NCBI GenBank assembly: GCA_035500505.1
Contig: DATJXE010000003.1
Span: 70,921 to 134,920, forward strand
DNA: 64,000 bases
Direction: 5' to 3'
Source: Minisyncoccota bacterium
Lineage (GTDB): Bacteria; Patescibacteriota; Minisyncoccia; Phycocordibacterales; UBA2100
The notes under the pieces were generated by a model. It worked only from the letters and a program-made list of their open reading frames with translations, did not search any database and had not been told where the DNA came from. A program made the translations under genes and the position numbers. Positions 6,323-63,750 of the stretch are shown piece by piece (the first letter of the stretch is position 1; every line of letters begins with the position of its first letter).

Positions 6323-6356
6323 AGAAAAAGTCCCGCTCAGCGGGACTTTTTTTATT
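6321..6356. terminator. Bidirectional terminator between convergent efp and rpsR
   Basis: A-run, gtcccgc-tca-gcgggac stem, T-run. Confidence 0.65.
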
Positions 6357-14185: not shown

Positions 14186-15982
14186 TCACCGCCCTTTCCC
14201 CTTTGATTTCCGTACGTAGAGAAGCTCTTCGGGCAAACGGAAGAGTCCTTCGTCGTTCTTTTTCTGCTCCATGAAGTGCGCGATGAAGCCGACCGAGCGC
14301 GGGATGACGAAAAGCGCGTTGAAAAATTCGCATGCGGCAAGCTCGCGCAACTCTTCCGGAGAAAGTTTCTCGCACTCGGCGAGGATGTCGAGCGCAAGCG
14401 CGGCGATGACGCCGTCGACGTTGAGGATCAGATTGCCGCTTTTCTTGGTGGTTACCGCCTCTATCTCACGTGCGAAATCATAATGCGGATGCTCCTTGAG
14501 GAGTCCTGCGAACTGCGAAATGGCCGCGACGCGCGGGTCGGGGATGCCGACGCGATACTTGCGGTGCCCGATGCCCGCGAGCAACTTCCCGCCCTTGGTG
14601 CGCGCTTCGACGAAGTGTGTCGCAGCATCATCTTGTACGACGCCGGAGAGCCACTGTTCGGCGGCTGCATTGACCGCGCCGCCGAAACGAGGGCCGATCG
14701 TGAGGAGCCCGGCGGAGAGCGAAGAAACGAGATCTTTGCCCGCGCGCGCCGAGATCATCGTGTTGACCGCGCCGGAGACTTCGCCGCCATGGTCGATAAG
14801 CAATTGCAGAACGGCTTCGGCGAATGCGGCCGTTACGTCGGATCGCAACTTCTTGTCGAGCAAAGCCTCGAAGGCTGCTGCCGCGAAACCGCGCTTCTGC
14901 GGGATCAGTTTCTTGTTTTTGACGAACGTCGGCACCGCGTCAAGGTCCACGACCTCGCGTGTCGAAAGGACACTCGGGCGGCGGTTCTTCATCGAGTCCA
15001 TTGTCAAAACGGTAGCATGAAATGTCTCCCCCGGCAGCTTTTTGAGCTCCGCAAGGAATTCAGGGAATGTATCCGGCGCGATCGCGCCAGCCTTGCGGAG
15101 TGCGTCCCGTTTCGCTCGTGCGCTTTCGTCCTGGCGCGCAACGAGTGCTTTCGCGTGCCCGAACTGCATGTGCTCGTCGAACGCCTCATCGATTATGCCG
15201 GCGATATAGGCCACGACCGGTTTCGTGAGCTTCTTTTTTTCGAGCAGCCCCACGATCTCGTACTCATCAACGCCGCCAAGTTCCCCAAAATACACGACCG
15301 CGTTCGTTTTCGGGTCATGCTGCGCAAGCAGCAAGACGTCGGTGAGTGACGTGATCGGAAAACGGTCGCCGCCGATGCACATTGCGAACGAAAGATCCTT
15401 CCGCGCGCCCGCGACCGCGCGGATAAGCTCGTTGGTCATGCCGCCCGACGTCGAGACGACGGCGACGGAACCTTCAGTCGTGAGGTTGCCCGCTTCGATC
15501 TGGGCGATGTCGGTACCGCCGATCGCACCCAGCTTGAGGTGTCCAGCAACGAGCAATCCCACACCCGAGGGCCCTGCAATGAGTTTGTCGTTACCGAATC
15601 GGCGAAGAAGCTCGGTCGCATGTCGTTCGGGAATGTTTTCTGCGAACAGATGTCCGCCGAGCGCATTCGGGAACCTTTCGAAGAAGGCGATGCTCGAATC
15701 GAACGCGCGCCTGCCCGATCGCACGTTCAGCATCCAAGAGATCCTGCCATGAAAAGACCGAGGAATAGGGCCAATATCCGGGAAGCATGGAAGAAGCAGC
15801 TCGGACGGTCCGAAAAAGAATTTCTGCGCCTTACGGGCGCCGCCCACTATCGCAACGACCGATGGTCCTTTTTTGCCGCTCAGAAAATCGAAATCGAGTA
15901 TGGATTGCACGATGCCGGGATGGTTGCCGACCACGAGAATTCCCGTCGTCCCTTTTCGGACTAATTCGAGGACATTTTTCAT
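14186..15982 (-). CDS. aclA: ATP-citrate lyase large subunit-like (CoA-binding / CoA-ligase domains fused to citrate-synthase-like domain)
   Basis: SucD-like N-terminus with phosphohistidine loop QFGHAKA; C-terminal citrate-synthase motif IGHRKYRVGIPDPR. Confidence 0.7.
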   Translation of the reverse strand: MKNVLELVRKGTTGILVVGNHPGIVQSILDFDFLSGKKGPSVVAIVGGARKAQKFFFGPSELLLPCFPDIGPIPRSFHGRISWMLNVRSGRRAFDSSIAFFERFPNALGGHLFAENIPERHATELLRRFGNDKLIAGPSGVGLLVAGHLKLGAIGGTDIAQIEAGNLTTEGSVAVVSTSGGMTNELIRAVAGARKDLSFAMCIGGDRFPITSLTDVLLLAQHDPKTNAVVYFGELGGVDEYEIVGLLEKKKLTKPVVAYIAGIIDEAFDEHMQFGHAKALVARQDESARAKRDALRKAGAIAPDTFPEFLAELKKLPGETFHATVLTMDSMKNRRPSVLSTREVVDLDAVPTFVKNKKLIPQKRGFAAAAFEALLDKKLRSDVTAAFAEAVLQLLIDHGGEVSGAVNTMISARAGKDLVSSLSAGLLTIGPRFGGAVNAAAEQWLSGVVQDDAATHFVEARTKGGKLLAGIGHRKYRVGIPDPRVAAISQFAGLLKEHPHYDFAREIEAVTTKKSGNLILNVDGVIAALALDILAECEKLSPEELRELAACEFFNALFVIPRSVGFIAHFMEQKKNDEGLFRLPEELLYVRKSKGKGR

Positions 15983-17136
15983 ACGCCAGTGAAAGCGATC
16001 GCGTCTTCGACCGCTTTCGTAATGACGGTTTCCGAACCGTGGATGGAACCGAACAATTTCTCGCGCTCCAAAAACTCCTGCATAAGTTCCAGTCCCGCTT
16101 TTTCGTTCGGTCCGCCGCGCCGCACGAACACTTTTATTTTTTGTGCGCGAAGTTTCGGTGCGTATTCAGAAAGCGCGTCGATGATGCCGGTGAATGTTTT
16201 TTTCACGTCGGTGAAATTGGCGACGCCCCCGGCGATGACCAGCGCTTTCTTTTTCGCCTTGGATGCGAGCATGAGCTCGATGACCTCTTTCGCATAGAGA
16301 TAGGTCTCTTCGCGCGACGGTCCGCCACTGTATTCGCCATAGTTCCCTATGAACTTCCCCGCCCCTTCGAGCGCGGCTTCGTCGGCTATCACGATAGAAC
16401 CCCCGCCGCCGGAAAGTAAGAAGAAGAGCGCACCATTTTTATTGACGACGGAAAGCTTGAGCGACGCGGGCGTCGTTTTGGCGATCGCTTCGACGCGCGC
16501 TTCGGCCGGATGTTCCGAACCGGTCGTTACGATATCGTCTTCGCCCCACGAGTCGGTAAAGAAAGCTCCAGCGCTGTCGACAAGACACGCTGCGTCCAAC
16601 AGATACGTTTTACCCTTCTGAATAACGAGTGGATTTATCTCAAGGAACGCGAAAAAGTTCTTGTTGAACGTTCCGACGAGATGCTGCAAAAATCCCTCCG
16701 AGATTTTTGCAGCGTTCGCCACTTTCTTCACATCCGCATCAGTTGCAACAATGTACGTTTTCACCTTCTCCGGGTGCGCCTCGATGTCGATCCCGCCCTC
16801 GCCCGCGTGCAGTATCCGTATCCCTTCGCGCACGCGCTCGAGCGAAAGGTATTGTTCTTCGCTTGCTTCGTGCGGCACGAGTGGCTCGAGCAAGAATTGT
16901 GAGAAGCCTTTTTTCTTCCACTCCGCTATCTTTTTCAATGCCTGCGAGGGCGTTACGCCGACCGCAACAAGTCCTTGTTTAAAGCGCTTTTTTATACCTT
17001 GGTCGACCTTGACGACGAGAGTCCCCTTCGAAGCTTTAGCGGAGTAGGACTGCCCCGCATGAACAAAAATTCCTTTATATGCATCTCCAAGCAATATCTT
17101 TTTCGCGCGATACTCGCTGATCTTTACGCGAGCCAT
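15979..17136 (-). CDS. aclB: ATP-citrate lyase small subunit-like (SucC-like ATP-grasp)
   Basis: ISEYRAKKIL N-terminus, ATP-grasp fold; 4-nt overlap with aclA. Confidence 0.65.
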   Translation of the reverse strand: MARVKISEYRAKKILLGDAYKGIFVHAGQSYSAKASKGTLVVKVDQGIKKRFKQGLVAVGVTPSQALKKIAEWKKKGFSQFLLEPLVPHEASEEQYLSLERVREGIRILHAGEGGIDIEAHPEKVKTYIVATDADVKKVANAAKISEGFLQHLVGTFNKNFFAFLEINPLVIQKGKTYLLDAACLVDSAGAFFTDSWGEDDIVTTGSEHPAEARVEAIAKTTPASLKLSVVNKNGALFFLLSGGGGSIVIADEAALEGAGKFIGNYGEYSGGPSREETYLYAKEVIELMLASKAKKKALVIAGGVANFTDVKKTFTGIIDALSEYAPKLRAQKIKVFVRRGGPNEKAGLELMQEFLEREKLFGSIHGSETVITKAVEDAIAFTGV

Positions 17137-21721: not shown

Positions 21722-23281
21722 TCACTTCCTATGCGGCACCCACTTTTCGATGAGCCCGAGGTGGCCAAGTCGAGAACGGATCGCGCTCGGCTTACGGCCG
21801 AAATGTTTTGCCATCTCCGTATTCGGCCTTTTTGACTTGAACATTTCCGTGAGCAATGCATCGTCGTCCTTGCTCCACGGCTTTCCGACATTCGGATACT
21901 TCTCGCGAAGCTCATGCATCGAACTCGACTGTACTACCCTTTCCCGTATCGCACCTGGTTCCTGAGCGCCGATGGCGCGGAGAAAGTTGGTTTCCAACTT
22001 TTCTTTCTCCTTCTGCGGGAGCGCTGCGAACTTTTTGCGCGCGGCGTCGGAGTAGCCGCGGAAATGTCTGTCTGCCGCAGCGACTTTTGGGTGGAGTTGC
22101 AACGCTCGTTCGTTGAATCCTTCGAGAAAAAGTCCTCCCAGCGAGCGCACACGCGAGATGGCTACGTAGCCTTGTCCGAACTCGAATGCCTGCGAGAGGT
22201 CGATAACAGCCGCATCGAGCGACATCCCCTGCGATTTGTGTACCGTGATCGCCCAGGCAAGCCGCAGCGGCACCTGCGTGATGCGCGCGAGTATCTTGTT
22301 GCCGTCCTGCACGACCCACTCGACCGGCTCGACCGTGATGGTGTCGTTCTTCGTCCTCACGATGGGCGCGCCGAGATTGCTGAATCCGATGACCTCGCCA
22401 AGCGTGCCGTTCACGTACCCCATATCGAAATTATTCCGCGTAAAAAGGACTTTTGCGCCCTCTTTGAGTTCCAGGGTTTCGGGAGAAAGGCATTGGTTTT
22501 TTAGGGATTCTACGAGTGCGGCCGGGCCGCGCGAGGTCATGCGGAACACATGGGAATTTCCGGGAATTTTCCCGAGCGATTCCTGGTTGATGCGATCGAC
22601 GTTCTCATTATGCGTATAGAGACGCGTCGCGACGGTTTGTCCCGAGAGAATGCCCGAACGCGCCCGGAGCCGCGTTCGGTGCGCCGGGCTTAAATTTCCG
22701 ATGCGAAACGCTCCGAGCAGTTCCAAAAAGTCTCCATCTTCTTGTCGATGCTGCTCGTTCAAATAGCAAATGATCGGATTCGCCTCCTTCCATGCGTTGG
22801 ACTCAAAAGCGAATTTTGCCTCCTCCTTTTTAGAAATGGGAGGAAGTTGGAAAAAATCGCCGACGAATACGACCTGAAGCCCACCAAAGGGCTCTTCTGG
22901 TTGCAGCGGTTTGCGATGCAGCGTCCGCAGCACGCGGTCGACGCTATCCAGCGTCGCCGCGTCGAGCATTGATATCTCATCGATGATGAGGACTTTCGCG
23001 GTTACGATGCGTCTCGCAGTTTTTTCGCGACTTTGTATCATTTCTATTTCATAATCGCTTACATTTGATTTGATACCGATGCCGCTCCACGAATGGATGG
23101 TCATACCATTGATATGCGTGGCCGCAATGCCGGTGGAGGCCGTGACCGCCGGCTCTACACCGCGCTCGCGAAGCCACTGTACGTAGCGATTTATCGTGTG
23201 CGTCTTCCCAGAACCCGGTTCCCCGGTCAGAAAGACGTTTAGTCCTGTCTTCAAAATGGCGAGAGCTTCATCCTGCGTCAT
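21722..23281 (-). CDS. PIF1/RecD-like SF1B helicase with C-terminal helix-turn-helix tail
   Basis: Walker A GEPGSGKTH, AAA_30 plus UvrD_C_2-like core; start at internal Met 14 nt after argS stop. Confidence 0.8.
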   Translation of the reverse strand: MTQDEALAILKTGLNVFLTGEPGSGKTHTINRYVQWLRERGVEPAVTASTGIAATHINGMTIHSWSGIGIKSNVSDYEIEMIQSREKTARRIVTAKVLIIDEISMLDAATLDSVDRVLRTLHRKPLQPEEPFGGLQVVFVGDFFQLPPISKKEEAKFAFESNAWKEANPIICYLNEQHRQEDGDFLELLGAFRIGNLSPAHRTRLRARSGILSGQTVATRLYTHNENVDRINQESLGKIPGNSHVFRMTSRGPAALVESLKNQCLSPETLELKEGAKVLFTRNNFDMGYVNGTLGEVIGFSNLGAPIVRTKNDTITVEPVEWVVQDGNKILARITQVPLRLAWAITVHKSQGMSLDAAVIDLSQAFEFGQGYVAISRVRSLGGLFLEGFNERALQLHPKVAAADRHFRGYSDAARKKFAALPQKEKEKLETNFLRAIGAQEPGAIRERVVQSSSMHELREKYPNVGKPWSKDDDALLTEMFKSKRPNTEMAKHFGRKPSAIRSRLGHLGLIEKWVPHRK

Positions 23282-26923: not shown

Positions 26924-26951
26924 ATCATATTCTTCCTAAAATCTAAGTCAA
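26924..26951 (-). promoter_or_regulatory. Candidate sigma70 promoter for secE-nusG-rplK: TTGACT, 16 nt spacer, TATGAT
   Basis: Minus-strand TTGACT at 26951-26946 and TATGAT at 26929-26924; the -35 hexamer abuts the end of hairpin element E1. Confidence 0.5.
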
Positions 26952-27086
26952 GCGGACGGGAACGAAACCCGTTTTTTGTTGCACATCTAGGGAACAGCTT
27001 TACCATTCTCTGTGCCGGACCCTCGCAAAAGAATTCTCAGCATACATAACAGAGGGGAAACAAAAACGGGTTTCGTTCCCGTCCGC
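26952..27086. repeat. Hairpin element E1: 28-bp terminal inverted repeat (25 bp perfect) around a 77-bp conserved core
   Basis: Left arm gcggacgggaacgaaacccgtttttt and right arm aaaaacgggtttcgttcccgtccgc are exact reverse complements; core shares an ATGTAT motif and a gagggtccggcRcagagaatg block with E2. Confidence 0.75.
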
Positions 27087-27089
27087 TAT

Positions 27090-28166: not shown

Positions 28167-28302
28167 CACGAGAAAGGCTGGTGCTCTGTTTTGTTTTCCG
28201 TCCCGATGTATGTTGGTAGTTACCTCGTGAGGGTCCGGCGCAGAGAATGATTACAGCTGTAGCTTAGACGTTCAACAAAACAGAGCACCAGCCTTTCTCG
28301 TG
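28167..28302. repeat. Hairpin element E2: perfect 29-bp terminal inverted repeat around a 78-bp core, inverted relative to E1
   Basis: cacgagaaaggctggtgctctgttttgtt ... aacaaaacagagcaccagcctttctcgtg; core is ~70-75 percent identical to the reverse complement of the E1 core. Confidence 0.75.
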
Positions 28303-36680: not shown

Positions 36681-36837
36681 TGTGCGCAGGGGGAGACTCG
36701 GTCACGCGTCGTTTTCTGCTGAAAACGCGCGCGGCCCCGACTCGCGCCGTCGCGCTCCGTCTTTCGAGTCTCTGCTCCCAACGCAAAACGTGTCCGCAAG
36801 GGACACGTTTTGCGTTGGGTGCGCAGGGGGAGACTCG
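36681..36837. repeat. 19-nt exact direct repeat (gtgcgcagggggagactcg) at 36681-36699 and 36819-36837; second copy is the 3' end of tRNA-Leu
   Basis: A duplicated tRNA 3' end is the classic signature of site-specific integration into a tRNA gene; only 119 bp lie between the copies. Confidence 0.6.
36777..36819. other. Perfect 19-bp hairpin with GCAAG loop, abutting the tRNA-Leu 3' end
   Basis: cccaacgcaaaacgtgtcc-gcaag-ggacacgttttgcgttggg; the last three nucleotides are the tRNA's 3' CCC. Confidence 0.6.
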
Positions 36838-45283: not shown

Positions 45284-45297
45284 ACTTCAACGCGAAA

Positions 45298-45336
45298 ACG
45301 GGCACTGGAAATAAACCCCCCAGTGCCCGTTTTTTA
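45298..45336 (+). terminator. Rho-independent terminator
   Basis: acgggcactgg ... ccagtgcccgt 11-bp stem followed by TTTTT. Confidence 0.55.
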
Positions 45337-47529: not shown

Positions 47530-47910
47530 TCAAAATCCGCCCTGGCTTTGCATATACTGCTCCATCTGCGACGCATCCGGCATCATGCGCAAATTCAGAC
47601 TGAACATGATCCATAGCGAACCGGAGACCAGGATGCCAACGACGAGAATCGCGAACCCAAAAATGACAAGCCGTTTACGCGAAGCGCTTCCTCGCCCGAG
47701 GTGGAGAAAACACACGACCTGCACGATGAACTGCACGAGCGCGGCCGCGACAATGGCTGCGACGAGCCTCACTTGCGGAAGCGCGTGTTGTGCGACGAGA
47801 ACGTAGGCGCCGAGCGTGAGCGCAAGCGAGAGAACGAAGCCCGCGACATAGGCGCGTGCAATCCCGTGCGAATGAGGCCACGCGCCGATCTCCTCGAAAT
47901 AGTTTTTCAT
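47530..47910 (-). CDS. cyoD: Cytochrome bo3 oxidase subunit IV-like small membrane protein
   Basis: Three TM helices; position after cyoC. Confidence 0.6.
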   Translation of the reverse strand: MKNYFEEIGAWPHSHGIARAYVAGFVLSLALTLGAYVLVAQHALPQVRLVAAIVAAALVQFIVQVVCFLHLGRGSASRKRLVIFGFAILVVGILVSGSLWIMFSLNLRMMPDASQMEQYMQSQGGF

Positions 47911-48515
47911 AGCGCTCCCATCAAATATACGATGGTAAATATGAATATCCATACGATGTCGAGAAAGTGCCAAAAAAGGCTAAACAGAGCCAATTTTCGC
48001 ATATTGCCCCTCGAGAATCCGCGCTTGAGGATGGCGATCGTGAGCGAGAGCAGCCACAGGAGGCCAACGGCGACGTGAAGCCCGTGCGTGCCGACCAGCG
48101 TGAAGTACGCCGAGAGGAATCCGCTGTGCGAGGGACCGTATCCTTGCGCGACGAGGCGCGTGAACTCCGAAACTTCCATCCCGACGAATGCCGCTCCGAG
48201 AACGAATGTCGTCGAAAGCAACAGAATCGCCGCTTGCACTTTGTCAGCGCGCGCGGCAAGGAGCGCGAGGCCGCAGGTGAAACTGCTCGTAAGGAGTGCG
48301 ATCGTTTCGATGAGCACGTACGGCAAGTTGAAGATGTTGCCCATCGAGGACCCTCCGAATGCGGGGCCGCGCAAGACGGCGAACACGGCGAACAGGCTCG
48401 CGAAGAGCACCAAGTCGGTCATGAGGTACGCCCAGAATCCGAAAACGGCGGTAGAATCCGCCGCGCGTTCTTCGGGAGAAAGGGTGTCGCTCGCGTGGGC
48501 TTGGGTTTCCATCAT
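47907..48515 (-). CDS. cyoC: Cytochrome bo3 ubiquinol oxidase subunit III
   Basis: Five-TM COX3 fold. Confidence 0.85.
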   Translation of the reverse strand: MMETQAHASDTLSPEERAADSTAVFGFWAYLMTDLVLFASLFAVFAVLRGPAFGGSSMGNIFNLPYVLIETIALLTSSFTCGLALLAARADKVQAAILLLSTTFVLGAAFVGMEVSEFTRLVAQGYGPSHSGFLSAYFTLVGTHGLHVAVGLLWLLSLTIAILKRGFSRGNMRKLALFSLFWHFLDIVWIFIFTIVYLMGAL

Positions 48516-50497
48516 ACGGTTATCGCTTCGTCTCGTCGCAATCCGGCCTCACGGTGCACGATCTCGGACGCGGTGACGACATATTCCGCGTCCTCGTCGA
48601 ACGTGCGCGCGAGCGCGGTCACGATAGCGCCGAGCGCGCCGAATATCACGAGCCACCAGATGTGCCAGACCGCGCCGAACCCGAACGCGAAGACGAACGT
48701 TGCAATGATGAGCCCTGCAGCACTCTCTTTGGGCATATGGAAGTCTTCCGCCTGCATGTCGTGGTGTATCTTCGTGTGTTTGTATGCCCAAAACTGATCG
48801 CGCGCATGGACGAGCGGAAGTGCCGCGAAATTGTACGCGGGCGGGGGCGAAGCGACCGACCACTCGAGCGTGCGGCCGCGCCACGGATCGCTGCCGACCT
48901 TGTTTGCGTGCCGCTTCCTGATGCTCGCGATGAGCTGCGCGACCTGGCAACAAAAACCGAGTGCTATCAGAACGGCGCCGACTCCCGCAACCGCAAAAAG
49001 CGGCTGCCAGCCCAGCGCGGCGGAATAATGGTCGAGCCGCCTCGTCGCGCCCTCGAGACCAAGGAGGTAGAGCGGGCCGAACGCAAGGATGAATCCGGTG
49101 AGCCACAACCAGAACGCGCGCCTTCCCCACTTTTCATCGAACGTAAAGCCGAAGAATTTCGGGAACCAGTACGTGAGTCCCGCAAAGTAGCCGAAAAGCA
49201 CGCCGGAAACTATCATCGTGTGAAAGTGCGCGACGAGAAAGAGCGAGTTGTGCAATTCGTAGTCGGCCGGTGGTTCCGCCATGACGACGCCCGCGACCCC
49301 ACCCAGCGTGAAGAGCACGACGAACCCGATGAACCACAGCATCGGTGTGGTGAAGCGGATGCGTCCACGGTACATCGTGAAGAGCCAGTTGAATATCTTG
49401 ACGCCCGTCGGCACCGCGATGACCGCCGTCATGATGCCGAAGAACGCGTTCACATCCGCCTCCGCGCCCATCGTGAAAAAGTGGTGCAGCCATACGATGA
49501 ACGACAGCACAACAATGGCCCAAATGGAGAGCACCATCGACGTGTACCCGGCAAGTTTCTTGCTCGAAAAAACGGGCACGATCTCGGAAAACACCCCGAA
49601 CGCCGGCAAAATGAGGATGTAGACCTCCGGATGTCCCCACGCCCATATCAAATTGACGTACATCATCATGTTGCCGCCTCCGCCTGCGGTGAAAAAATGC
49701 ATGCCCGCGGTGCGGTCGAGCCACAAAAGCGCGAGGGTCACAGTGAGGATCGGGAACGCGAACACGACGAGCGACATCGAACCGAGCGTCGTCCAGGTGA
49801 ACATCGGAAGGCGCATCCAGGTCATGCCCTTCGCGCGCTTCTTCACGATGGTCGCGATGAAATTCACCCCCGAGAGGAGGCTTCCCAAGCCCCCGATCTG
49901 CAGTCCCCATATCCAATAATCAACCCCAACGGTCGGCGAATATTGAAGTTCCGAAAGCGGCGGATACGCGAGCCAGCCTGCGGTCGAGAAGTCGCCCAAC
50001 AAAAGCGAACAGTTGATGAGCGCCGCACCGGCAAAAAAGAGCCAGAAGCTCAAGGAATTCAAGAATGGGAACGCAACGTCGCGCGTCCCTATCTGGAGTG
50101 GCACAACGAGGTTGATGAGCCCGAACATGAGTCCCATCGCGACGAAAAAGATCATGATAGAACCGTGCGCGGAGAATATTTGTTGGAAATGGTTCGCGCT
50201 CACGATGCCGAACGAATCGCCCACCGAGGTCGCCTGCTGCGCGCGAAGGAGGAGCGCGTCGACGCCGCCGCGCACGAGCATGATGCCCGCGACCGTGATG
50301 TACATGATGCCGATCTTTTTTGGGTCGAGCGATGTAAACCACTCCTTCCACAGCCATCGCCATGAACCGGAGAAGGTGACGAAGGCGAGTACGGCCAGTA
50401 TGCAGGCCACCATATAGATGGCGCCGCCCCACGCGATCGGATTCTGCGGGAGAACCGACCACGAAAGCTTGCCGAATATGAGTTCCTGCCAGTTCAT
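48512..50497 (-). CDS. cyoB: Cytochrome bo3 ubiquinol oxidase subunit I (heme-copper oxidase)
   Basis: 661 aa with conserved His ligands and the WAHHMF region. Confidence 0.9.
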   Translation of the reverse strand: MNWQELIFGKLSWSVLPQNPIAWGGAIYMVACILAVLAFVTFSGSWRWLWKEWFTSLDPKKIGIMYITVAGIMLVRGGVDALLLRAQQATSVGDSFGIVSANHFQQIFSAHGSIMIFFVAMGLMFGLINLVVPLQIGTRDVAFPFLNSLSFWLFFAGAALINCSLLLGDFSTAGWLAYPPLSELQYSPTVGVDYWIWGLQIGGLGSLLSGVNFIATIVKKRAKGMTWMRLPMFTWTTLGSMSLVVFAFPILTVTLALLWLDRTAGMHFFTAGGGGNMMMYVNLIWAWGHPEVYILILPAFGVFSEIVPVFSSKKLAGYTSMVLSIWAIVVLSFIVWLHHFFTMGAEADVNAFFGIMTAVIAVPTGVKIFNWLFTMYRGRIRFTTPMLWFIGFVVLFTLGGVAGVVMAEPPADYELHNSLFLVAHFHTMIVSGVLFGYFAGLTYWFPKFFGFTFDEKWGRRAFWLWLTGFILAFGPLYLLGLEGATRRLDHYSAALGWQPLFAVAGVGAVLIALGFCCQVAQLIASIRKRHANKVGSDPWRGRTLEWSVASPPPAYNFAALPLVHARDQFWAYKHTKIHHDMQAEDFHMPKESAAGLIIATFVFAFGFGAVWHIWWLVIFGALGAIVTALARTFDEDAEYVVTASEIVHREAGLRRDEAITV

Positions 50498-60725: not shown

Positions 60726-61969
60726 GCACTATCAGGGCTATCGCCCCCGCACAACTCGTCTCTCTCTATCACCTCTCGCTCGCCTACTTGGGCGCGTTGC
60801 TGCACGGCTTCCCTTCCAAAAAACTGCGCGTGATCGCGGTCACCGGAACCAAGGGAAAATCCTCGACCACGGAACTCATCGACGCGATCTTCGAAGAGAG
60901 CGGAGAGAAGACGGCGCTTCTCAACTCCATCCGGTTCAAGATAGACAACGTGTCAGAATCGAACCTGTTGCGCATGTCCATGCCGGGACGGTTCTTCATC
61001 CAGAAATTCTTGTCCGATGCCGTGAAAGCAGGGTGCACGACGGCCATTCTCGAGATGACCTCGGAAGGCGCGCGGCAATTCAGGCATCGCGCCATCGAAC
61101 TCGACGCGCTGGTGTTCACCAATCTCGCGCCCGAACACATCGAATCGCACGGTTCATACGAAGCGTATGCGGACGCGAAGTTCGAAATAGCGAAACAACT
61201 GCTTCGTTCCCATAAGCGCCCGCGCATTCTGGTTGCCAACGCCGACGATCCGGCATCGGAGCGATACCTCAAAGTGCCCGTCGAGTTCAATCTTCCCTTC
61301 TCGCTCTCGGAGGGCGGCCCACACGAAGCGGGCGAACATGGCGGCTTCTTCACCTTCAAAGGCGTGAGAATGGTCGTCGACCTCCCCGGAACCTTCTCGC
61401 TCCAGAATTCACTCGCGGCGGCGACCGTCGCAAGCGCGTTCAAGGTCCAGGAAGGGGTCATTTCGCGGGCGCTCCAAAAAGTATCGACCATCCCCGGCCG
61501 CGCCGAGCGTATCGAAGGAGGCCAGGATTTCACGGTTATCGTCGATTACGCGCACACGCCGGAATCTCTGCAGGCGCTTTACGACGCCTTCGGTGCGCGG
61601 CGCAAGATCTGCGTGCTCGGTTCGACCGGCGGCGGACGCGACCATTGGAAACGCCCCGTCATGGGCGCAATAGCCGAAAAAGAATGCGCCGAGGTCATTT
61701 TGACCAACGAGGATCCGTACGACGAGGATCCCGTGCAAATAGTTGAGGCGATGAAAAAAGGCATGAAAAAACTTCCCAGCGTCATCATGGACCGGCGAGA
61801 AGCCATCGCGACGGCCTTGCAAAAGGCGGGCTCGGGCGACGCCGTCCTGATAACCGGCAAGGGGACCGACCCGTGCATCTGTGGGCCGCGGGGAGAGAAA
61901 ATCCCCTGGAGCGACGCGGCAGTGGCTCGGGAAGAACTTGAAAAGTTGCTCGCGAGCGAGCACGTATAA
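60722..61969 (+). CDS. Mur-ligase-family protein (central ATP-binding and C-terminal domains; MurE/MurF/FolC/MurT-like)
   Basis: VTGTKGKSST P-loop; ATGA overlap with ruvA; exact family member not resolvable by eye. Confidence 0.65.
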   Translation: MSTIRAIAPAQLVSLYHLSLAYLGALLHGFPSKKLRVIAVTGTKGKSSTTELIDAIFEESGEKTALLNSIRFKIDNVSESNLLRMSMPGRFFIQKFLSDAVKAGCTTAILEMTSEGARQFRHRAIELDALVFTNLAPEHIESHGSYEAYADAKFEIAKQLLRSHKRPRILVANADDPASERYLKVPVEFNLPFSLSEGGPHEAGEHGGFFTFKGVRMVVDLPGTFSLQNSLAAATVASAFKVQEGVISRALQKVSTIPGRAERIEGGQDFTVIVDYAHTPESLQALYDAFGARRKICVLGSTGGGRDHWKRPVMGAIAEKECAEVILTNEDPYDEDPVQIVEAMKKGMKKLPSVIMDRREAIATALQKAGSGDAVLITGKGTDPCICGPRGEKIPWSDAAVAREELEKLLASEHV

Positions 61970-61976
61970 TGGTGCC

Positions 61977-62882
61977 ATGGTCAGAAAAGTCCTCTGGTAC
62001 ATCTTCATCGGGCTCGTGGTTATCCTCATCCTTGTCTGGCTCTTCACGGGCGGCATCGACAAGATCAAAGCGGCTGCGACATCGTTCTCGAACCCCTTTG
62101 GCTCAGGAGGTCTTTTTGGTGGCGGCGCCATACAGCTGCCATGGGCCATACCGATACCGCAAGGACCTGACATCTCGAATCTCACCGGGGACTATCAAGG
62201 CGGTTCGCAAGCCCAAACGCTCGGCAACCCTTCCGCCTATGGCAATCAGATAACGATATCGGCGGACGGCGCGAGCGCGAACGATCCGCAGCAAGAATAC
62301 GTCGTCATCCAAAATAACGGCGCGGCTGCGATCGATGTTACCGGCTGGTCGCTCCAGAGCGCGTTGAGCGGCGCAAGGGCTTACATACCTCGCGGCGCGA
62401 ACTCCTTCGAGGTCGGGGCGCTCAACGAACAGACCGACATAAACCTGGCGCCCGGCGCGAGCGCAGTGGTAACGTCGGGCCTCTCTCCGGTCGGAACGTC
62501 GTTCCGCGAGAACGAATGCAGCGGCTATCTTGAGGGGTTGCAGAGTTACACGCCGCCCATCCAAACGCTCTGCCCGCTGCCGAACGCGAACCTTTCGCAG
62601 GCCGCCCAGTACGGACAAACGTGCGCTGATTTCGTCTCCTCGATCCCCTACTGCACGTTCCCCAAACAATTCCCCTCGAACATTTCTCCTGCCTGCCAAA
62701 GCTACGTGCAGAACACCTTCTCCTATAACGGCTGCGTGCAGACCCATCAGGGCGAGGCGTCGTTCCCGCTCACGACCTGGCGTATCTACCTCGGCGCCTC
62801 AAGAGAACTTTGGGGCAACAGCCGCGATACCATCAGGCTCCTGGATTCGCAGGGGCAGGTCGTTGCCGTGACGTCGTATTAA
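61977..62882 (+). CDS. Secreted lamin-tail-domain protein
   Basis: N-terminal TM anchor; EYVVIQNNGAAAIDVTGWSL LTD signature; TATAAT box 7 nt upstream of ATG. Confidence 0.6.
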   Translation: MVRKVLWYIFIGLVVILILVWLFTGGIDKIKAAATSFSNPFGSGGLFGGGAIQLPWAIPIPQGPDISNLTGDYQGGSQAQTLGNPSAYGNQITISADGASANDPQQEYVVIQNNGAAAIDVTGWSLQSALSGARAYIPRGANSFEVGALNEQTDINLAPGASAVVTSGLSPVGTSFRENECSGYLEGLQSYTPPIQTLCPLPNANLSQAAQYGQTCADFVSSIPYCTFPKQFPSNISPACQSYVQNTFSYNGCVQTHQGEASFPLTTWRIYLGASRELWGNSRDTIRLLDSQGQVVAVTSY

Positions 62883-62889
62883 TTAGCGT

Positions 62890-63029
62890 GGGCGGGGGAA
62901 CCGAGGGCTGTTTTTTCGAACTCCGTACTCATCTCGGCTCCGATGTATATCACCATTGCGGAAATACCCCGGGGAACTTGAACGTGTCGCGCGCAATGTT
63001 CGCTAAAACAGCCCTCGGTTCCCCCGCCC
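62890..63029. repeat. Hairpin element E3: perfect 25-bp terminal inverted repeat around a 90-bp core, diverged member of the E1/E2 family
   Basis: gggcgggggaaccgagggctgtttt ... aaaacagccctcggttcccccgccc; core carries ccgATGTAT and ends gttcgct before the aaaaca arm, as in E2. Confidence 0.65.
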
Positions 63030-63036
63030 GACCGCC

Positions 63037-63750
63037 CTATTTCTTCACGGCCGCAAGCTGTTGATCAATGACCGTTTTAACCTGCGCATAGCTCTCAGCT
63101 CCCGCGACCATCTGGCTTCCGATGAGCATCGCCGGAGTGCCTTGCACGCCGTCTTGTTCGCCCTCCTGCTTGTCGGCATCCATTGCGCTTTGGTACTTGG
63201 TCGCGTTGGTCTGTGCAAGTTGCATGACCTGTGCGGTCTGTGCCGCGGTGAGGACCCCCGCCGTTATTTTTTGTATCTCGGCGGTCGTCGCCCATCCCGT
63301 GTTTTCTTCTCCCTGGTTCGCGTAGATGGCGTGGTGCCAATCCGCAAATTTATCCGGCGCGACCGCCCACACCGCGCGAGCGACATGTCCGAGCGTGTCG
63401 GAGTCGGCCCCGAGGAAAGAGAAGTCTTTGTAAACGATCTTCACTTTGCCCGTGTTCACGTAATCTTGAATGAGCTGCGGCATGACCGTAAGTTCGTTCT
63501 GTTTGCAAAATGGGCACTGGTAATCGAACCAGTACGCGATGGTGAGCGGCGCGTTGGCACTTCCGATGGTCGGGTTGCCCGACGAACTTACTTGTGAGGC
63601 ACTTACCGCCGCGACTTGCTGGGTGCCGGTTGCGAGAGGAGTGGCGCCCGAACCGGTGCGCCCGACCACGAAGATGGCTCCGGCGATGATTATTCCCGCG
63701 ATGACTATCGCGATGGGCGTGTAAAAGTTTGGGTTGATGCTTTGAGGCAT
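63037..63750 (-). CDS. DsbA-like thioredoxin-fold thiol:disulfide oxidoreductase, membrane-anchored
   Basis: CPFC active-site motif and N-terminal TM helix. Confidence 0.7.
   Translation of the reverse strand: MPQSINPNFYTPIAIVIAGIIIAGAIFVVGRTGSGATPLATGTQQVAAVSASQVSSSGNPTIGSANAPLTIAYWFDYQCPFCKQNELTVMPQLIQDYVNTGKVKIVYKDFSFLGADSDTLGHVARAVWAVAPDKFADWHHAIYANQGEENTGWATTAEIQKITAGVLTAAQTAQVMQLAQTNATKYQSAMDADKQEGEQDGVQGTPAMLIGSQMVAGAESYAQVKTVIDQQLAAVKK

What the first reader, a model, noticed from the sequence alone, without database searches (positions are those of the whole stretch)
62890..63029. Third hairpin-element copy centred between two convergent stop codons
E3 has a perfect 25-bp arm pair, again of unique sequence, with ctgtttt / aaaacag inner ends. 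Its 90-bp core retains ccgATGTAT and the gttcgct terminus seen in E2 but is otherwise diverged. It sits exactly 7 nt from the lamin-tail protein stop on one side and 7 nt from the dsbA-like stop on the other. All three copies therefore occupy stop-codon-proximal positions at transcription-unit boundaries. This argues for insertion-site preference or a terminator or 3'-end function rather than random retention.
Basis: seen in the sequence. Interest (0 to 1): 0.7.

Follow-up and report, generated by a model that had tools for sequence, protein, structure and literature searches.

The report
Hairpin-shaped insertion between two converging genes
A 140-base hairpin-forming DNA segment has been inserted between the ends of two converging genes in an uncultured Paceibacterota bacterium; it is one of a diverse set of small, probably mobile, palindromic elements that sit where a transcription terminator normally would, and their stems differ in almost every copy.

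Summary
E3 (62890-63029) has perfect 25-bp arms, a 90-nt core, and lies 7 nt from each of two convergent stop codons.

- **E3 is an insertion.** Four related Paceibacterota genomes have only 23-45 nt in the same DsbA><LTD gap; one of them holds a textbook bidirectional terminator. A fifth relative carries a different hairpin element there.
- **Such elements are common in the clade.** I found 12 in about 210 kb, with perfect 16-32-bp arms and 52-90-nt cores. Nine lie 3' of a gene (8 within 9 nt of a stop), two in divergent promoter gaps, and one in frame inside a helicase ORF.
- **Cores form families; arms are copy-specific in most.** At two orthologous sites one genome has a bare palindrome and another has the same palindrome with a core at its centre, so core and arms are separable.
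- **"Third copy" is only weakly supported.** E1 and E2 cores are clearly homologous (z=9). The E3 core is no more similar to them than shuffled sequence; it shares only CTGTTTT/AAAACAG, one 9-mer and GTTC.
- **No known signature.** There is no Rfam match, no canonical terminator signature, no fold in the core, and no transposase in the DNA examined.

Best reading: a non-autonomous palindromic mobile element kept in the post-stop "terminator slot", probably serving as a terminator or 3'-end hairpin. This is a new variant of a known kind, and its mobility mechanism is unknown.

The parts
62890..62914 (.). E3 left arm: 25 nt, about 18-21 nt of copy-specific sequence followed by the inner end CTGTTTT
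   Evidence: perfect complement of 63005-63029. Unique in the window.
62915..63004 (.). E3 core, 90 nt. Contains an inner 5-bp helix CGAAC/GTTCG (62917-62921 / 62998-63002) and the 9-mer CCGATGTAT shared with E2. Otherwise has no detectable homologue.
   Evidence: The core alone is not more structured than shuffles (z +1.3 and +0.5). No Rfam match.
63005..63029 (.). E3 right arm: AAAACAG followed by copy-specific sequence
61881..62882 (+). Lamin-tail-domain (LTD) protein gene; its stop codon at 62880-62882 lies 7 nt before E3. The start codon is uncertain.
   Evidence: PF00932. Orthologues are syntenic in L007, L009, L060, L067 and L072.
63037..63750 (-). DsbA-like thioredoxin-fold protein gene; its stop codon at 63037-63039 lies 7 nt after E3
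   Evidence: PF13462, PF01323; 100% match to a Candidatus Paceibacterota MAG protein.
26951..27087 (-). E1: same architecture, with 26-bp perfect arms. Its core is homologous to the E2 core but in reverse orientation. It lies 2 nt after the SIMPL gene stop, and its last base completes the -35 box of the secE promoter.
   Evidence: Absent, arms included, from the syntenic site in L011/L012 and L069.
28167..28302 (+). E2: same architecture, with 29-bp perfect arms (36 nt at 92%). It lies 6 nt after the DUF2127 gene stop and 11 nt before the next start codon.
   Evidence: The syntenic gap is 12 nt in L069 and holds a bare 28-bp palindrome in L061.

Best explanation
E3 is a small, non-coding, non-autonomous palindromic insertion element. 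It consists of a roughly 90-nt core closed by a perfect stem about 25 bp long. It belongs to a diverse superfamily of such hairpin elements in one clade of Candidatus Paceibacterota.

**Shown:**
- It entered a 23-45-nt gap between two convergent genes.
- Related elements are gained at syntenic sites with both arms included and no recognisable target duplication.
- Cores fall into sequence families, while the outer 16-21 bp of the arms differ between copies.
- A core can be present or absent at the exact centre of a conserved palindrome.

**Inferred:**
- The elements spread at the DNA level by a structure-directed mechanism, such as insertion into or around palindrome centres, or hairpin-specific single-strand transposition. 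They do not spread by transposase recognition of conserved terminal repeats.
- Arm complementarity is kept perfect by selection or by arm-to-arm copying (template switching).
- In these very compact genomes, copies survive almost only in the few bases between a stop codon and the next promoter or stop.
- There the very stable hairpin (about -76 kcal/mol as RNA) takes over the role of the short bidirectional terminator or 3'-end protective hairpin found in relatives.
For: **Insertion at the E3 site.** The syntenic DsbA><LTD gap is 28 nt in L007, 23 nt in L009, 42 nt in L060 and 45 nt in L072. The L072 gap holds the canonical terminator AAATCGCCCGCT-acca-AGCGGGCGATTT. The window's gap is 154 nt. 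In L067 the same gap holds a hairpin element of a different core family.

**Clean gain of arms plus core.**
- E1 against L011: 'TGA AC|TTGACT' versus 'TAG AT[137 nt]TGACT'.
- L060 5609-5728 against L007/L009, where the two stop codons are 6 nt apart or overlap and the protein C-termini are conserved.
- L061 1237-1356 against L011/L069.

**Class inventory.** There are 12 elements in about 210 kb, with arms of 16-32 bp (L067e2's stem continues outwards with mismatches). nhmmer found no further or degenerate copies of these core families.

**Selfish-DNA behaviour.**
- Both orientations occur relative to the flanking genes.
- One copy lies in frame inside a Pif1-like helicase ORF.
- The elements recur in independent assemblies (L061/L062, L067/L068).

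**Modularity.**
- E1 and E2 cores score z = 9 while their arms are about 29% identical, which is random.
- L067e2 and L067e6 have similar cores and different arms.
- L060 has bare palindromes at two orthologous sites where L067 has the same arms plus a 68-nt core.

**Terminator slot.**
- Canonical bidirectional terminators in the window fill the same kind of post-stop gaps.
- Positions within tandem gaps are biased to the stop side (p = 0.006).
- E3 is the only long inverted repeat found in its gap.

**Not an RNA gene.** There is no Rfam match. The cores are not structured (z +0.4 to +1.6).
Against: - No mobilising enzyme was found. There is no transposase, integrase, reverse-transcriptase or HUH domain in 50 window ORFs or in the annotated loci of relatives. 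Only 64 kb of a contig of at least 367 kb was visible.
- No two copies with identical arms and core were seen apart from family D, so recent transposition is not demonstrated.
- Exact-motif scans of the genome, metagenome and viral collections with the E1/E2 core motif gave only chance hits. The families therefore look narrow, and the true copy number is unknown.
- E3 itself has no detectable homologue, so its membership rests on architecture and short motifs.
- E3 has no T-run after the stem and a 90-nt loop. It is not a canonical intrinsic terminator, and no expression data exist.
- The origin of the copy-specific arms is unexplained. They match neither the flanks, nor other loci, nor viral contigs beyond chance.
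Confidence: 0.55

Rival explanations
1. E3 is a host cis-acting RNA element: an unusually long 3'-UTR hairpin that evolved in place as a terminator, an RNase III site or an mRNA stabiliser for the two convergent genes. On this view it is not mobile DNA.
For: - It sits exactly in the terminator slot.
- Its RNA fold is extremely stable on both strands.
- The stems contain only Watson-Crick pairs, as a hairpin that must fold on both transcripts would need.
- The E3 core has no homologue that would prove transposition.
Against: - It is absent from four close relatives (L007, L009, L060, L072), which make do with hairpins of 4-12 bp.
- The same architecture occurs inside an ORF and in promoter gaps.
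- Homologous cores occur at unrelated loci in both orientations.
- There is no U-tract after the stem.
- A 90-nt unstructured loop is hard to explain for a terminator that evolved in place.
Confidence: 0.15
2. The elements are two-layered. Short perfect palindromes (a REP/MITE-like first layer) are invaded at their exact centre by a second small mobile 'core', or the core spreads between palindromes by gene conversion. On this view the E3 arms are an older palindrome and only the 90-nt core, or the core plus TTTT/AAAA, is the moving part.
For: - Family D: bare palindromes at L060 6217-6254, L060 9931-9966 and L061 9745-9772, against the same arms with 68-69-nt cores at the two orthologous sites in L067.
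- Homology ends sharply at GTTTT/AAAAC in E1 vs E2, and at TTTTTGC in family B.
- A bare hairpin with 19-bp perfect arms (22 nt at 95%) exists in the window at 36774-36822.
Against: - For E1, E3, L060e and L061e the relatives lack the arms as well as the core, so no intermediate is seen.
- Bare long palindromes are rarer than filled ones in the sample.
- The unique part of the arms is rather uniform (about 16-21 bp), and the perfect arms (16-32 bp) are longer than ordinary terminator stems (11-14 bp).
- No enzyme is known or found.
Confidence: 0.2
3. E3 encodes a functional small RNA or guide-like molecule: a conserved scaffold (the core) presenting a variable stem of about 20 nt. This would be analogous to guide RNAs or hairpin RNAs used in defence or regulation.
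For: - Variable arms of about 20 nt sit next to a more conserved core that starts GTTTT and ends AAAAC.
- The E1/E2 cores are conserved far better than their arms.
Against: - The arms match nothing else in the window or loci.
- 18-mers from the arms give only chance hits in viral contigs.
- Orientation is not consistent with the flanking transcription, and no promoter is detected.
- The cores are unstructured, and there is no Rfam match.
- No associated effector gene was found.
- One copy is translated inside an ORF.
Confidence: 0.05
4. E3 is an assembly or amplification artefact (a fold-back chimera).
For: E3 itself is seen in only one assembly, and the source contig could not be retrieved.
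Against: - Elements of the same architecture recur identically in independent assemblies from different pipelines and samples (L061 ENA vs L062 JGI; L067 ENA vs L068 Logan).
- E3 is internal to a long contig and flanked by intact syntenic genes.
- Fold-back artefacts duplicate flanking sequence, which the E3 arms do not.
Confidence: 0.02

Closest known systems
Rickettsia palindromic elements (RPEs) (from my own knowledge, not tested against their sequences)
   Same: - Palindromic non-coding insertions of about 100-150 bp in a reduced genome.
- Several families.
- Present or absent between relatives.
- Found in intergenic DNA and, in frame, inside protein-coding genes, as L012 6721-6826 is in a Pif1-like helicase.
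   Different: - RPE copies of one family share a consensus over their whole length, including the stem.
- Here the outer stem is different in nearly every copy and only the core is family-specific.
- The host is an unrelated phylum.
- No sequence similarity was tested or expected.
Correia/NEMIS elements of Neisseria, and ERIC elements of enterobacteria (from my own knowledge)
   Same: - Small hairpin-forming repeats.
- Co-transcribed with neighbouring genes.
- Occur in either orientation.
- Their RNA hairpins are RNase III or RNase E substrates and modulate termination and mRNA stability. This is the same kind of secondary role proposed for E3.
   Different: - Those elements have conserved terminal inverted repeats and, for Correia, a TA target duplication.
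- E3-type elements show no target duplication and have copy-specific arms.
REP/REPIN sequences mobilised by RAYT (IS200/IS605-like Y1 transposases), and IS1397/IS110-type elements that insert into REP hairpins (from my own knowledge)
   Same: - Extragenic palindromes at gene 3' ends.
- Seamless gain without target duplication fits single-strand hairpin transposition.
- Insertion of a second element into the apex of a palindrome has a precedent (IS1397, ISKpn1, IS621). It resembles family D, bare versus filled.
   Different: - REPs are conserved in sequence and present in tens to hundreds of copies, with a conserved tetranucleotide.
- No Y1/RAYT or IS110 gene was seen in the DNA examined.
- The insert here is only 52-90 nt and non-coding.
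Intrinsic (Rho-independent) bidirectional terminators
   Same: - Same genomic slot. Canonical examples in this window (6325-6351, 45295-45333) and at the E3 site in L072 fill the gap right after stop codons.
- A stable hairpin on both strands.
   Different: - Canonical sites have 9-14-bp stems, 1-11-nt loops, and A/T tracts outside the stem.
- E3 has a 25-bp stem, a 90-nt loop, its T/A tracts on the inner side of the stem, and no T-run after the stem.

Membership tests
   An nhmmer profile of the E1rc+E2 core does not hit E3, and the E3 core does not hit E1/E2, at E <= 100. Global alignment with the 7-nt ends held fixed gives z = -0.1 to +1.05, against z = 9.0 for E1 vs E2.
   Perfect 25-29-bp arms, 78-90-nt cores and the inner ends CTGTTTT/AAAACAG are identical in E2 and E3. 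The 9-mer CCGATGTAT is shared, and GTTC lies 3 nt before the A-tract.
Classical MITE (derivative of a DDE-transposase insertion sequence) | Terminal inverted repeats conserved between copies | tested here: not met
   The arms of E1, E2 and E3 are unrelated (about 29% identity). Only family D keeps the same arms.
Classical MITE (derivative of a DDE-transposase insertion sequence) | Direct target-site duplication flanking the element | tested here: not met
   Filled-versus-empty comparisons for E1, L060e and L061e show no duplication longer than 1 nt. For E3 the empty sites are too diverged to align base by base.
Classical MITE (derivative of a DDE-transposase insertion sequence) | Small, non-coding, present/absent at syntenic sites | tested here: met
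   The 12-15-codon ATG-TAT ORFs in the cores differ mostly at second codon positions, so they are not coding.
REP/REPIN with RAYT | Conserved REP consensus in many copies, and a RAYT (Y1 transposase) gene in the genome | tested here: inconclusive
   There is no shared consensus among the arms. No Y1_Tnp domain occurs in 50 window ORFs or in the annotated loci.
Intrinsic terminator | G+C-rich stem, short loop, U-run immediately 3' of the stem | tested here: not met
   The scan of 62300-63600 reports no site at E3. The loop is 90 nt and the stem is followed by GACCGCCC / ACGCTAAT.
Integron attC site | RYYYAAC / GTTRRRY core sites at the outer ends of an imperfect hairpin, cassette ORFs, and an integrase nearby | tested here: not met
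   The outer ends of E1-E3 share no such motifs. The neighbours are syntenic housekeeping genes. No integrase was found.
Any described RNA family (Rfam 15) | Covariance-model match at or near the gathering score | tested here: not met
   only generic long-hairpin microRNA models far below threshold.
Rickettsia-type palindromic elements (as a functional analogue) | Tolerated in-frame insertion within protein-coding genes | tested here: met
   L012 6721-6826 lies inside a Pif1-like helicase ORF, which stays open through it. The linker is 20 aa longer than in L061 and in the window orthologue. This was not observed for E3 itself.
Invertible DNA switch (inverton) | Both orientations of the segment between the inverted repeats present in one population, and a recombinase | not testable with these tools
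   No reads are available. No recombinase was found in the window. The opposite orientation of E1 and E2 is compatible with this but not diagnostic.

The most novel reading that the evidence does not exclude
The hairpins represent an undescribed mode of small-element mobility or maintenance that is directed by structure rather than by terminal sequence. In it, a family-specific core of about 50-95 nt (bounded by T- and A-tracts in most families; family D has none) is installed at the exact centre of a perfect palindrome, or a perfect stem of about 20 bp is regenerated around it. Every copy therefore carries its own arm sequence while staying perfectly paired. The product is then recruited as a substitute terminator in ultra-compact CPR (candidate phyla radiation) genomes.
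Probability: 0.25. Interest if true: 0.7.

Novelty: new variant of a known kind. Interest (0 to 1): 0.45.

Why it matters
Candidate-phyla-radiation bacteria such as Paceibacterota have tiny, tightly packed genomes and are thought to carry little repetitive or mobile DNA. This analysis shows otherwise for one clade.

- The clade carries hairpin insertions at roughly one per 17 kb over the ~210 kb sampled, and up to six in 20.7 kb in one genome.
- These insertions turn over between related species and repeatedly land in the same post-stop gaps.
- In at least one case an insertion displaces an ordinary terminator.

If they act as terminators or 3'-end hairpins, they are a source of regulatory turnover in genomes with almost no intergenic DNA.

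Copy-specific but perfectly paired stems combined with family-specific cores are the reverse of the usual pattern in miniature transposable elements. This points to a mobility or stem-maintenance mechanism that has not been characterised. Such elements also matter in practice: gene callers read through them, and repeat finders that look for conserved terminal repeats miss them.

Tried and rejected
1. **Known RNA family.** cmscan at gathering and at E <= 10 over the window segments and L067 gave nothing relevant.
2. **Wide inventory by exact motif.** I scanned for the E1/E2 core motif (A)GGGTCCGGCNCAGAGAAT in genome contigs, metagenome contigs and viral contigs. The 6, 47 and 0 hits all lacked hairpin context, so they are chance matches. 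An inventory by the E3 arm or by structure could therefore not be run.
3. **Retrieving the source contig beyond the window.** Exact-protein look-ups failed.
4. **Arms copied from flanking DNA** (inverted target duplication or outward palindrome growth). Local alignment of each arm to +/-120 nt of flank is no better than shuffles. The apparent similarity of the L012 left arm to the native linker could not be confirmed, because the linker is too variable.
5. **Arms as copies of other loci or of phage sequence.** There are no 12-mer matches in the window or loci. Viral 18-mer hits match exactly 18 nt only, which is the chance level.
6. **Arm families across core families.** Pairwise arm similarity is not significant after 91 tests. 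'GCGG' near the outer end occurs in 4 of 14 arm sequences (p = 0.0035, chosen post hoc). I treat this as a weak lead only.
7. **A shared superfamily core motif.** GGCGAG occurs in 4 of 6 family representatives (p about 0.03), which is marginal.
8. **A small peptide in the core** (ATG TAT..., 12-15 codons). E1/E2 differences fall mainly on second codon positions and there is no ribosome-binding site, so I rejected this.
9. **Each arm as a self-contained terminator.** The scan calls this for E1 only, not for E2 or E3, so it is not general.
10. **E1 and E2 as the ends of a composite transposon around the SIMPL gene.** SIMPL is syntenic without them in L011, L061 and L069.
11. **Similarity to phages or plasmids.** blastn found none.
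12. **Literature.** Four full-text searches found no description of such elements in CPR bacteria. A survey of perfect inverted repeats considers only spacers of 8 nt or less.
13. **L067 1537-1648.** I dropped this from the class because its right arm is part of a degenerate tRNA-like sequence.
Full report
**1. The observation**

The sequence at 62890-63029 is as described. It has two perfectly complementary 25-nt arms, GGGCGGGGGAACCGAGGGCTGTTTT and AAAACAGCCCTCGGTTCCCCCGCCC, around a 90-nt core. A further 5-bp inner helix (CGAAC/GTTCG) follows a 2-nt bulge.

The + strand ORF ending at 62882 carries a lamin-tail domain. The - strand ORF ending at 63037 is a DsbA/thioredoxin-fold protein. Seven bases separate each stop codon from the element.

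The arm occurs nowhere else in the window, even with three mismatches. Shuffled windows give only 0-4 perfect inverted repeats of 11 bp or more within the ~190-nt spacing searched. The element folds at -76 and -80 kcal/mol on the two strands, z about -8.

Two more elements of the same build exist in the window. E1 is at 26951-27087 with 26-bp arms. E2 is at 28167-28302 with 29 bp perfect, 36 nt at 92%. They lie 2 nt and 6 nt downstream of stop codons of minus-strand genes.

**2. Is E3 a third copy of the same element?**

E1, read as its reverse complement, aligns with E2 at roughly 75% identity across the whole core. The shared blocks include ATGTATG, GAGGGTCCGGCRCAGAGAATG and CAACAAAA. The outer 20-21 bp of the arms are unrelated.

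Both flanking gene sets are on the minus strand. E1 and E2 are therefore in opposite orientation relative to transcription.

E3 is different:
- A profile of the E1/E2 core does not find E3, and the E3 core does not find E1 or E2, even at E <= 100 with all filters off.
- With the shared 7-nt ends held fixed, global alignment of the E3 core to either core scores no better than shuffles. z ranges from -0.85 to +1.05, against z = 9 for E1 vs E2.
- What E3 shares with E2 is the inner arm end CTGTTTT/AAAACAG, the 9-mer CCGATGTAT at a different offset, and GTTC three bases before the A-tract.

I conclude that E3 belongs to the same architectural class and perhaps the same superfamily. "Third copy" in the sense of sequence homology is not demonstrated.

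**3. Source and relatives**

The DsbA-like and SIMPL proteins are 100% identical to proteins of a "MAG TPA: Candidatus Paceibacterota bacterium" on a 366,717-bp contig. The contig itself could not be fetched.

I fetched syntenic loci from related genomes, with 71-86% protein identity for the query proteins.

**4. E3 is an insertion into a terminator slot**

The convergent DsbA><LTD pair is conserved in every relative. The gap between the stops is:
- 28 nt in L007;
- 23 nt in L009;
- 42 nt in L060;
- 45 nt in L072, where it holds a textbook bidirectional terminator, AAATCGCCCGCT-acca-AGCGGGCGATTT;
- 154 nt in the window.

In L067 the same gap is 206 nt. It contains a different hairpin element with 32-bp perfect arms and a 52-nt core, whose core is homologous to an element at another locus in L061 and not to E3.

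The gap has therefore been occupied independently at least twice. In the window, E3 is the only long inverted repeat found between the two stops. Canonical bidirectional terminators elsewhere in the window (6325-6351, 45295-45333) fill the same kind of post-stop gap.

**5. The arms are gained together with the core**

- **E1.** L011/L012 read "...CGCTGA AC TTGACTTCG..." where the window reads "...GATAG AT [137 nt] TGACTTAG...". The length difference between the two gaps is exactly the length of the whole element. The last base of E1 completes the -35 box of the secE promoter, TTGACT-16-TATGAT.
- **L060 5609-5728** (24-bp arms) lies between a PKD-like gene and a SpoU methylase gene. Their stops are 6 nt apart in L007 and overlap in L009 and L072, and the protein C-termini are conserved.
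- **L061 1237-1356** (31-bp arms) starts 2 nt after a DUF2914 gene stop. It is absent in L011, in L069 and in the window.

No target duplication longer than 1 nt is visible in these comparisons.

**6. Inventory of the class**

In about 210 kb of Paceibacterota DNA I found 12 elements with perfect arms of 16-32 bp and cores of 52-90 nt. I excluded one inverted repeat that involves a tRNA-like sequence.

Family profiles found no further or degenerate copies of the cores. One stem (L067e2) continues outwards with mismatches.

Positions:
- eight lie within 9 nt of a stop codon;
- one lies 25 nt after a stop;
- two lie in divergent promoter gaps;
- one (L012 6721-6826) lies inside a Pif1-like helicase ORF. 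It is read through in frame within a variable linker that is 20 aa longer than in L061 and the window orthologue.

For the five elements in tandem gaps, the position is biased to the stop side (Fisher combined p = 0.006).

The elements recur in independent assemblies (L061 vs L062, L067 vs L068). This rules out assembly artefacts for the class.

**7. Cores and arms are separable modules**

The cores fall into families:
- **A:** E1, E2.
- **B:** L009e, L060e, L067e2, L067e6, sharing ...TTTTTGC-AGGCGAGGAT... .
- **C:** L061e, L067e5.
- **D:** L067e3, L067e4.

Within A, B and C the homology stops sharply a few bases into the stem, at the T-tract on the left and the A-tract on the right. The outer arms are unrelated.

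Family D behaves differently. Its arms (ACCACCACACCAAT...) are the same in both copies. At the two orthologous sites in L060, and at a third site in L061, the same palindrome is present with no core at all. Right-flank alignments confirm orthology. This is direct evidence that a core can be gained at, or lost from, the exact centre of a palindrome.

The arms have no detectable source:
- they show no similarity to flanking DNA;
- they do not match other loci;
- they do not match viral contigs beyond chance.

**8. What the element is not**

- **Not a known RNA family**.
- **Not a compact RNA.** The cores of E1-E3, folded alone, are if anything less structured than shuffles (z +0.4 to +1.6). All of the folding signal is in the closing stem, which argues against a ribozyme- or riboswitch-like RNA.
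- **Not a canonical intrinsic terminator.** The loop is 90 nt, the T/A tracts are on the inside of the stem, and no T-run follows it. The consensus scan reports nothing at E3.
- **Not coding.** The short ATG-TAT ORFs in the cores differ mainly at second codon positions.
- **Not an integron attC site**, and not one end of a larger transposon. The neighbours are syntenic housekeeping genes.
- **No linked enzyme.** None of 50 window ORFs, and none of the annotated genes in the relatives' loci, carries a transposase, integrase, reverse-transcriptase or HUH domain (24-26, 38, 39, 59, 60, 66).
- **No similarity to phages or plasmids**.

**9. Most likely mechanism**

*Shown.* E3-type hairpins are insertions that turn over between related genomes. 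They occur in either orientation, can sit inside an ORF, and have modular cores and arms.

*Inferred.* They are non-autonomous selfish DNA. They spread through a structure-directed process and not through recognition of conserved terminal repeats. Seamless gain without target duplication points to single-strand hairpin chemistry or recombination, and not to a DDE transposase.

With a 90-bp spacer, a cruciform is unlikely to extrude from duplex DNA. The stem can then only matter in single-stranded DNA or in RNA.

The perfect Watson-Crick pairing of stems whose sequences are otherwise free suggests one of two things:
- arm-to-arm copying, that is, template switching at quasi-palindromes, an established mutational mechanism; or
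- selection for a hairpin that must fold on both strands.

The E1/E2 cores are roughly 75% identical while their arms are randomised. Either the core is under sequence constraint, or the arms are replaced and do not simply drift.

In these compact genomes the next promoter can begin 2 nt after a stop codon. The few bases after a stop are almost the only place where a 140-bp insertion is harmless. This explains the positional bias without requiring a target preference, although it does not exclude one.

Once in place, a hairpin of -76 kcal/mol between convergent genes is expected to block 3' exonucleases and to hinder read-through. This would substitute for the small terminator seen in relatives. 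That last step rests on position only.

**10. Comparison with known systems**

The nearest analogues are Rickettsia palindromic elements (including the in-frame ORF insertions), Correia/NEMIS and ERIC elements (RNA-level hairpins that affect termination and stability), and REP/REPIN sequences together with the insertion sequences that target REP hairpin apices.

E3 fails the defining tests for a classical miniature inverted-repeat element: its terminal repeats are not conserved and there is no target duplication. It also fails the tests for an intrinsic terminator, an attC site and any Rfam family. The RAYT test is inconclusive because most of the genome was not visible.

The pattern of copy-specific stems with family-specific cores is the reverse of the usual one, and I found no description of it.

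**11. Verdict**

E3 is a real insertion in the terminator slot, and the class shows a real positional bias. Homology of E3 to E1/E2 is not established, and neither targeting nor terminator function is demonstrated.
- I rate it a new variant of a known kind (small palindromic mobile elements), with moderate interest (0.45).
- The main open question is how the copy-specific, perfectly paired arms arise.

Noticed in passing
L012 6721-6826 (inside ORF L012 5405-7024): A 106-nt hairpin element with 20-bp perfect arms lies inside a Pif1-like helicase gene and is read through in frame. It sits in a variable linker that is 20 aa longer than in the L061 orthologue and the window orthologue (window 21725-23281, minus strand), which both lack it.
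   Followed up: partly
L060 6217-6254, L060 9931-9966, L061 9745-9772; L067 4611-4712 and 9866-9966: The palindrome CACCACACCAAT|ATTGGTGTGGTG recurs at several sites. It overlaps the extended -10 box (TGnTATACT) of the DsbA promoter, and TATAC appears to be duplicated around it. In L067 the same palindromes carry a 68-69-nt core at their centre.
   Followed up: partly
L067 10739-10854: The same DsbA><LTD convergent gap that holds E3 in the window is occupied in this relative by a hairpin element of a different core family (32-bp arms). It is followed by a second small hairpin.
   Followed up: yes
window 36774-36822: A bare hairpin with 19-bp perfect arms (22 nt at 95%) and a 5-nt loop lies between a 219-aa ORF and the DUF2914 gene. 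It may be an element stem without a core.
   Followed up: no
L067 1537-1648 (and 1596-1663, minus strand): A 17-bp inverted repeat whose right arm is part of a degenerate tRNA-like sequence (Rfam tRNA 23.8 bits, below threshold; ARAGORN finds nothing). A canonical terminator lies just upstream, after the polA stop.
   Followed up: partly
window 14186-17136 (-) and 47907-50497 (-): Two ORFs have ATP-citrate-lyase-type domains (Citrate_bind, Citrate_synt, Ligase_CoA), and there are cytochrome oxidase subunits COX1/COX3. This is unusual metabolic content for a Paceibacterota genome.
   Followed up: no
window 26924-26951 (-): The secE-nusG-rplK promoter (TTGACT-16-TATGAT) begins at the last base of E1. 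A conserved hairpin, AACCCCCGCCGGGGGTTTT, lies in the secE leader in all relatives.
   Followed up: partly
window 62810-63064 (+): An 84-codon ORF runs straight through E3. It is almost certainly spurious, but it is the kind of ORF a gene caller could report.
   Followed up: no
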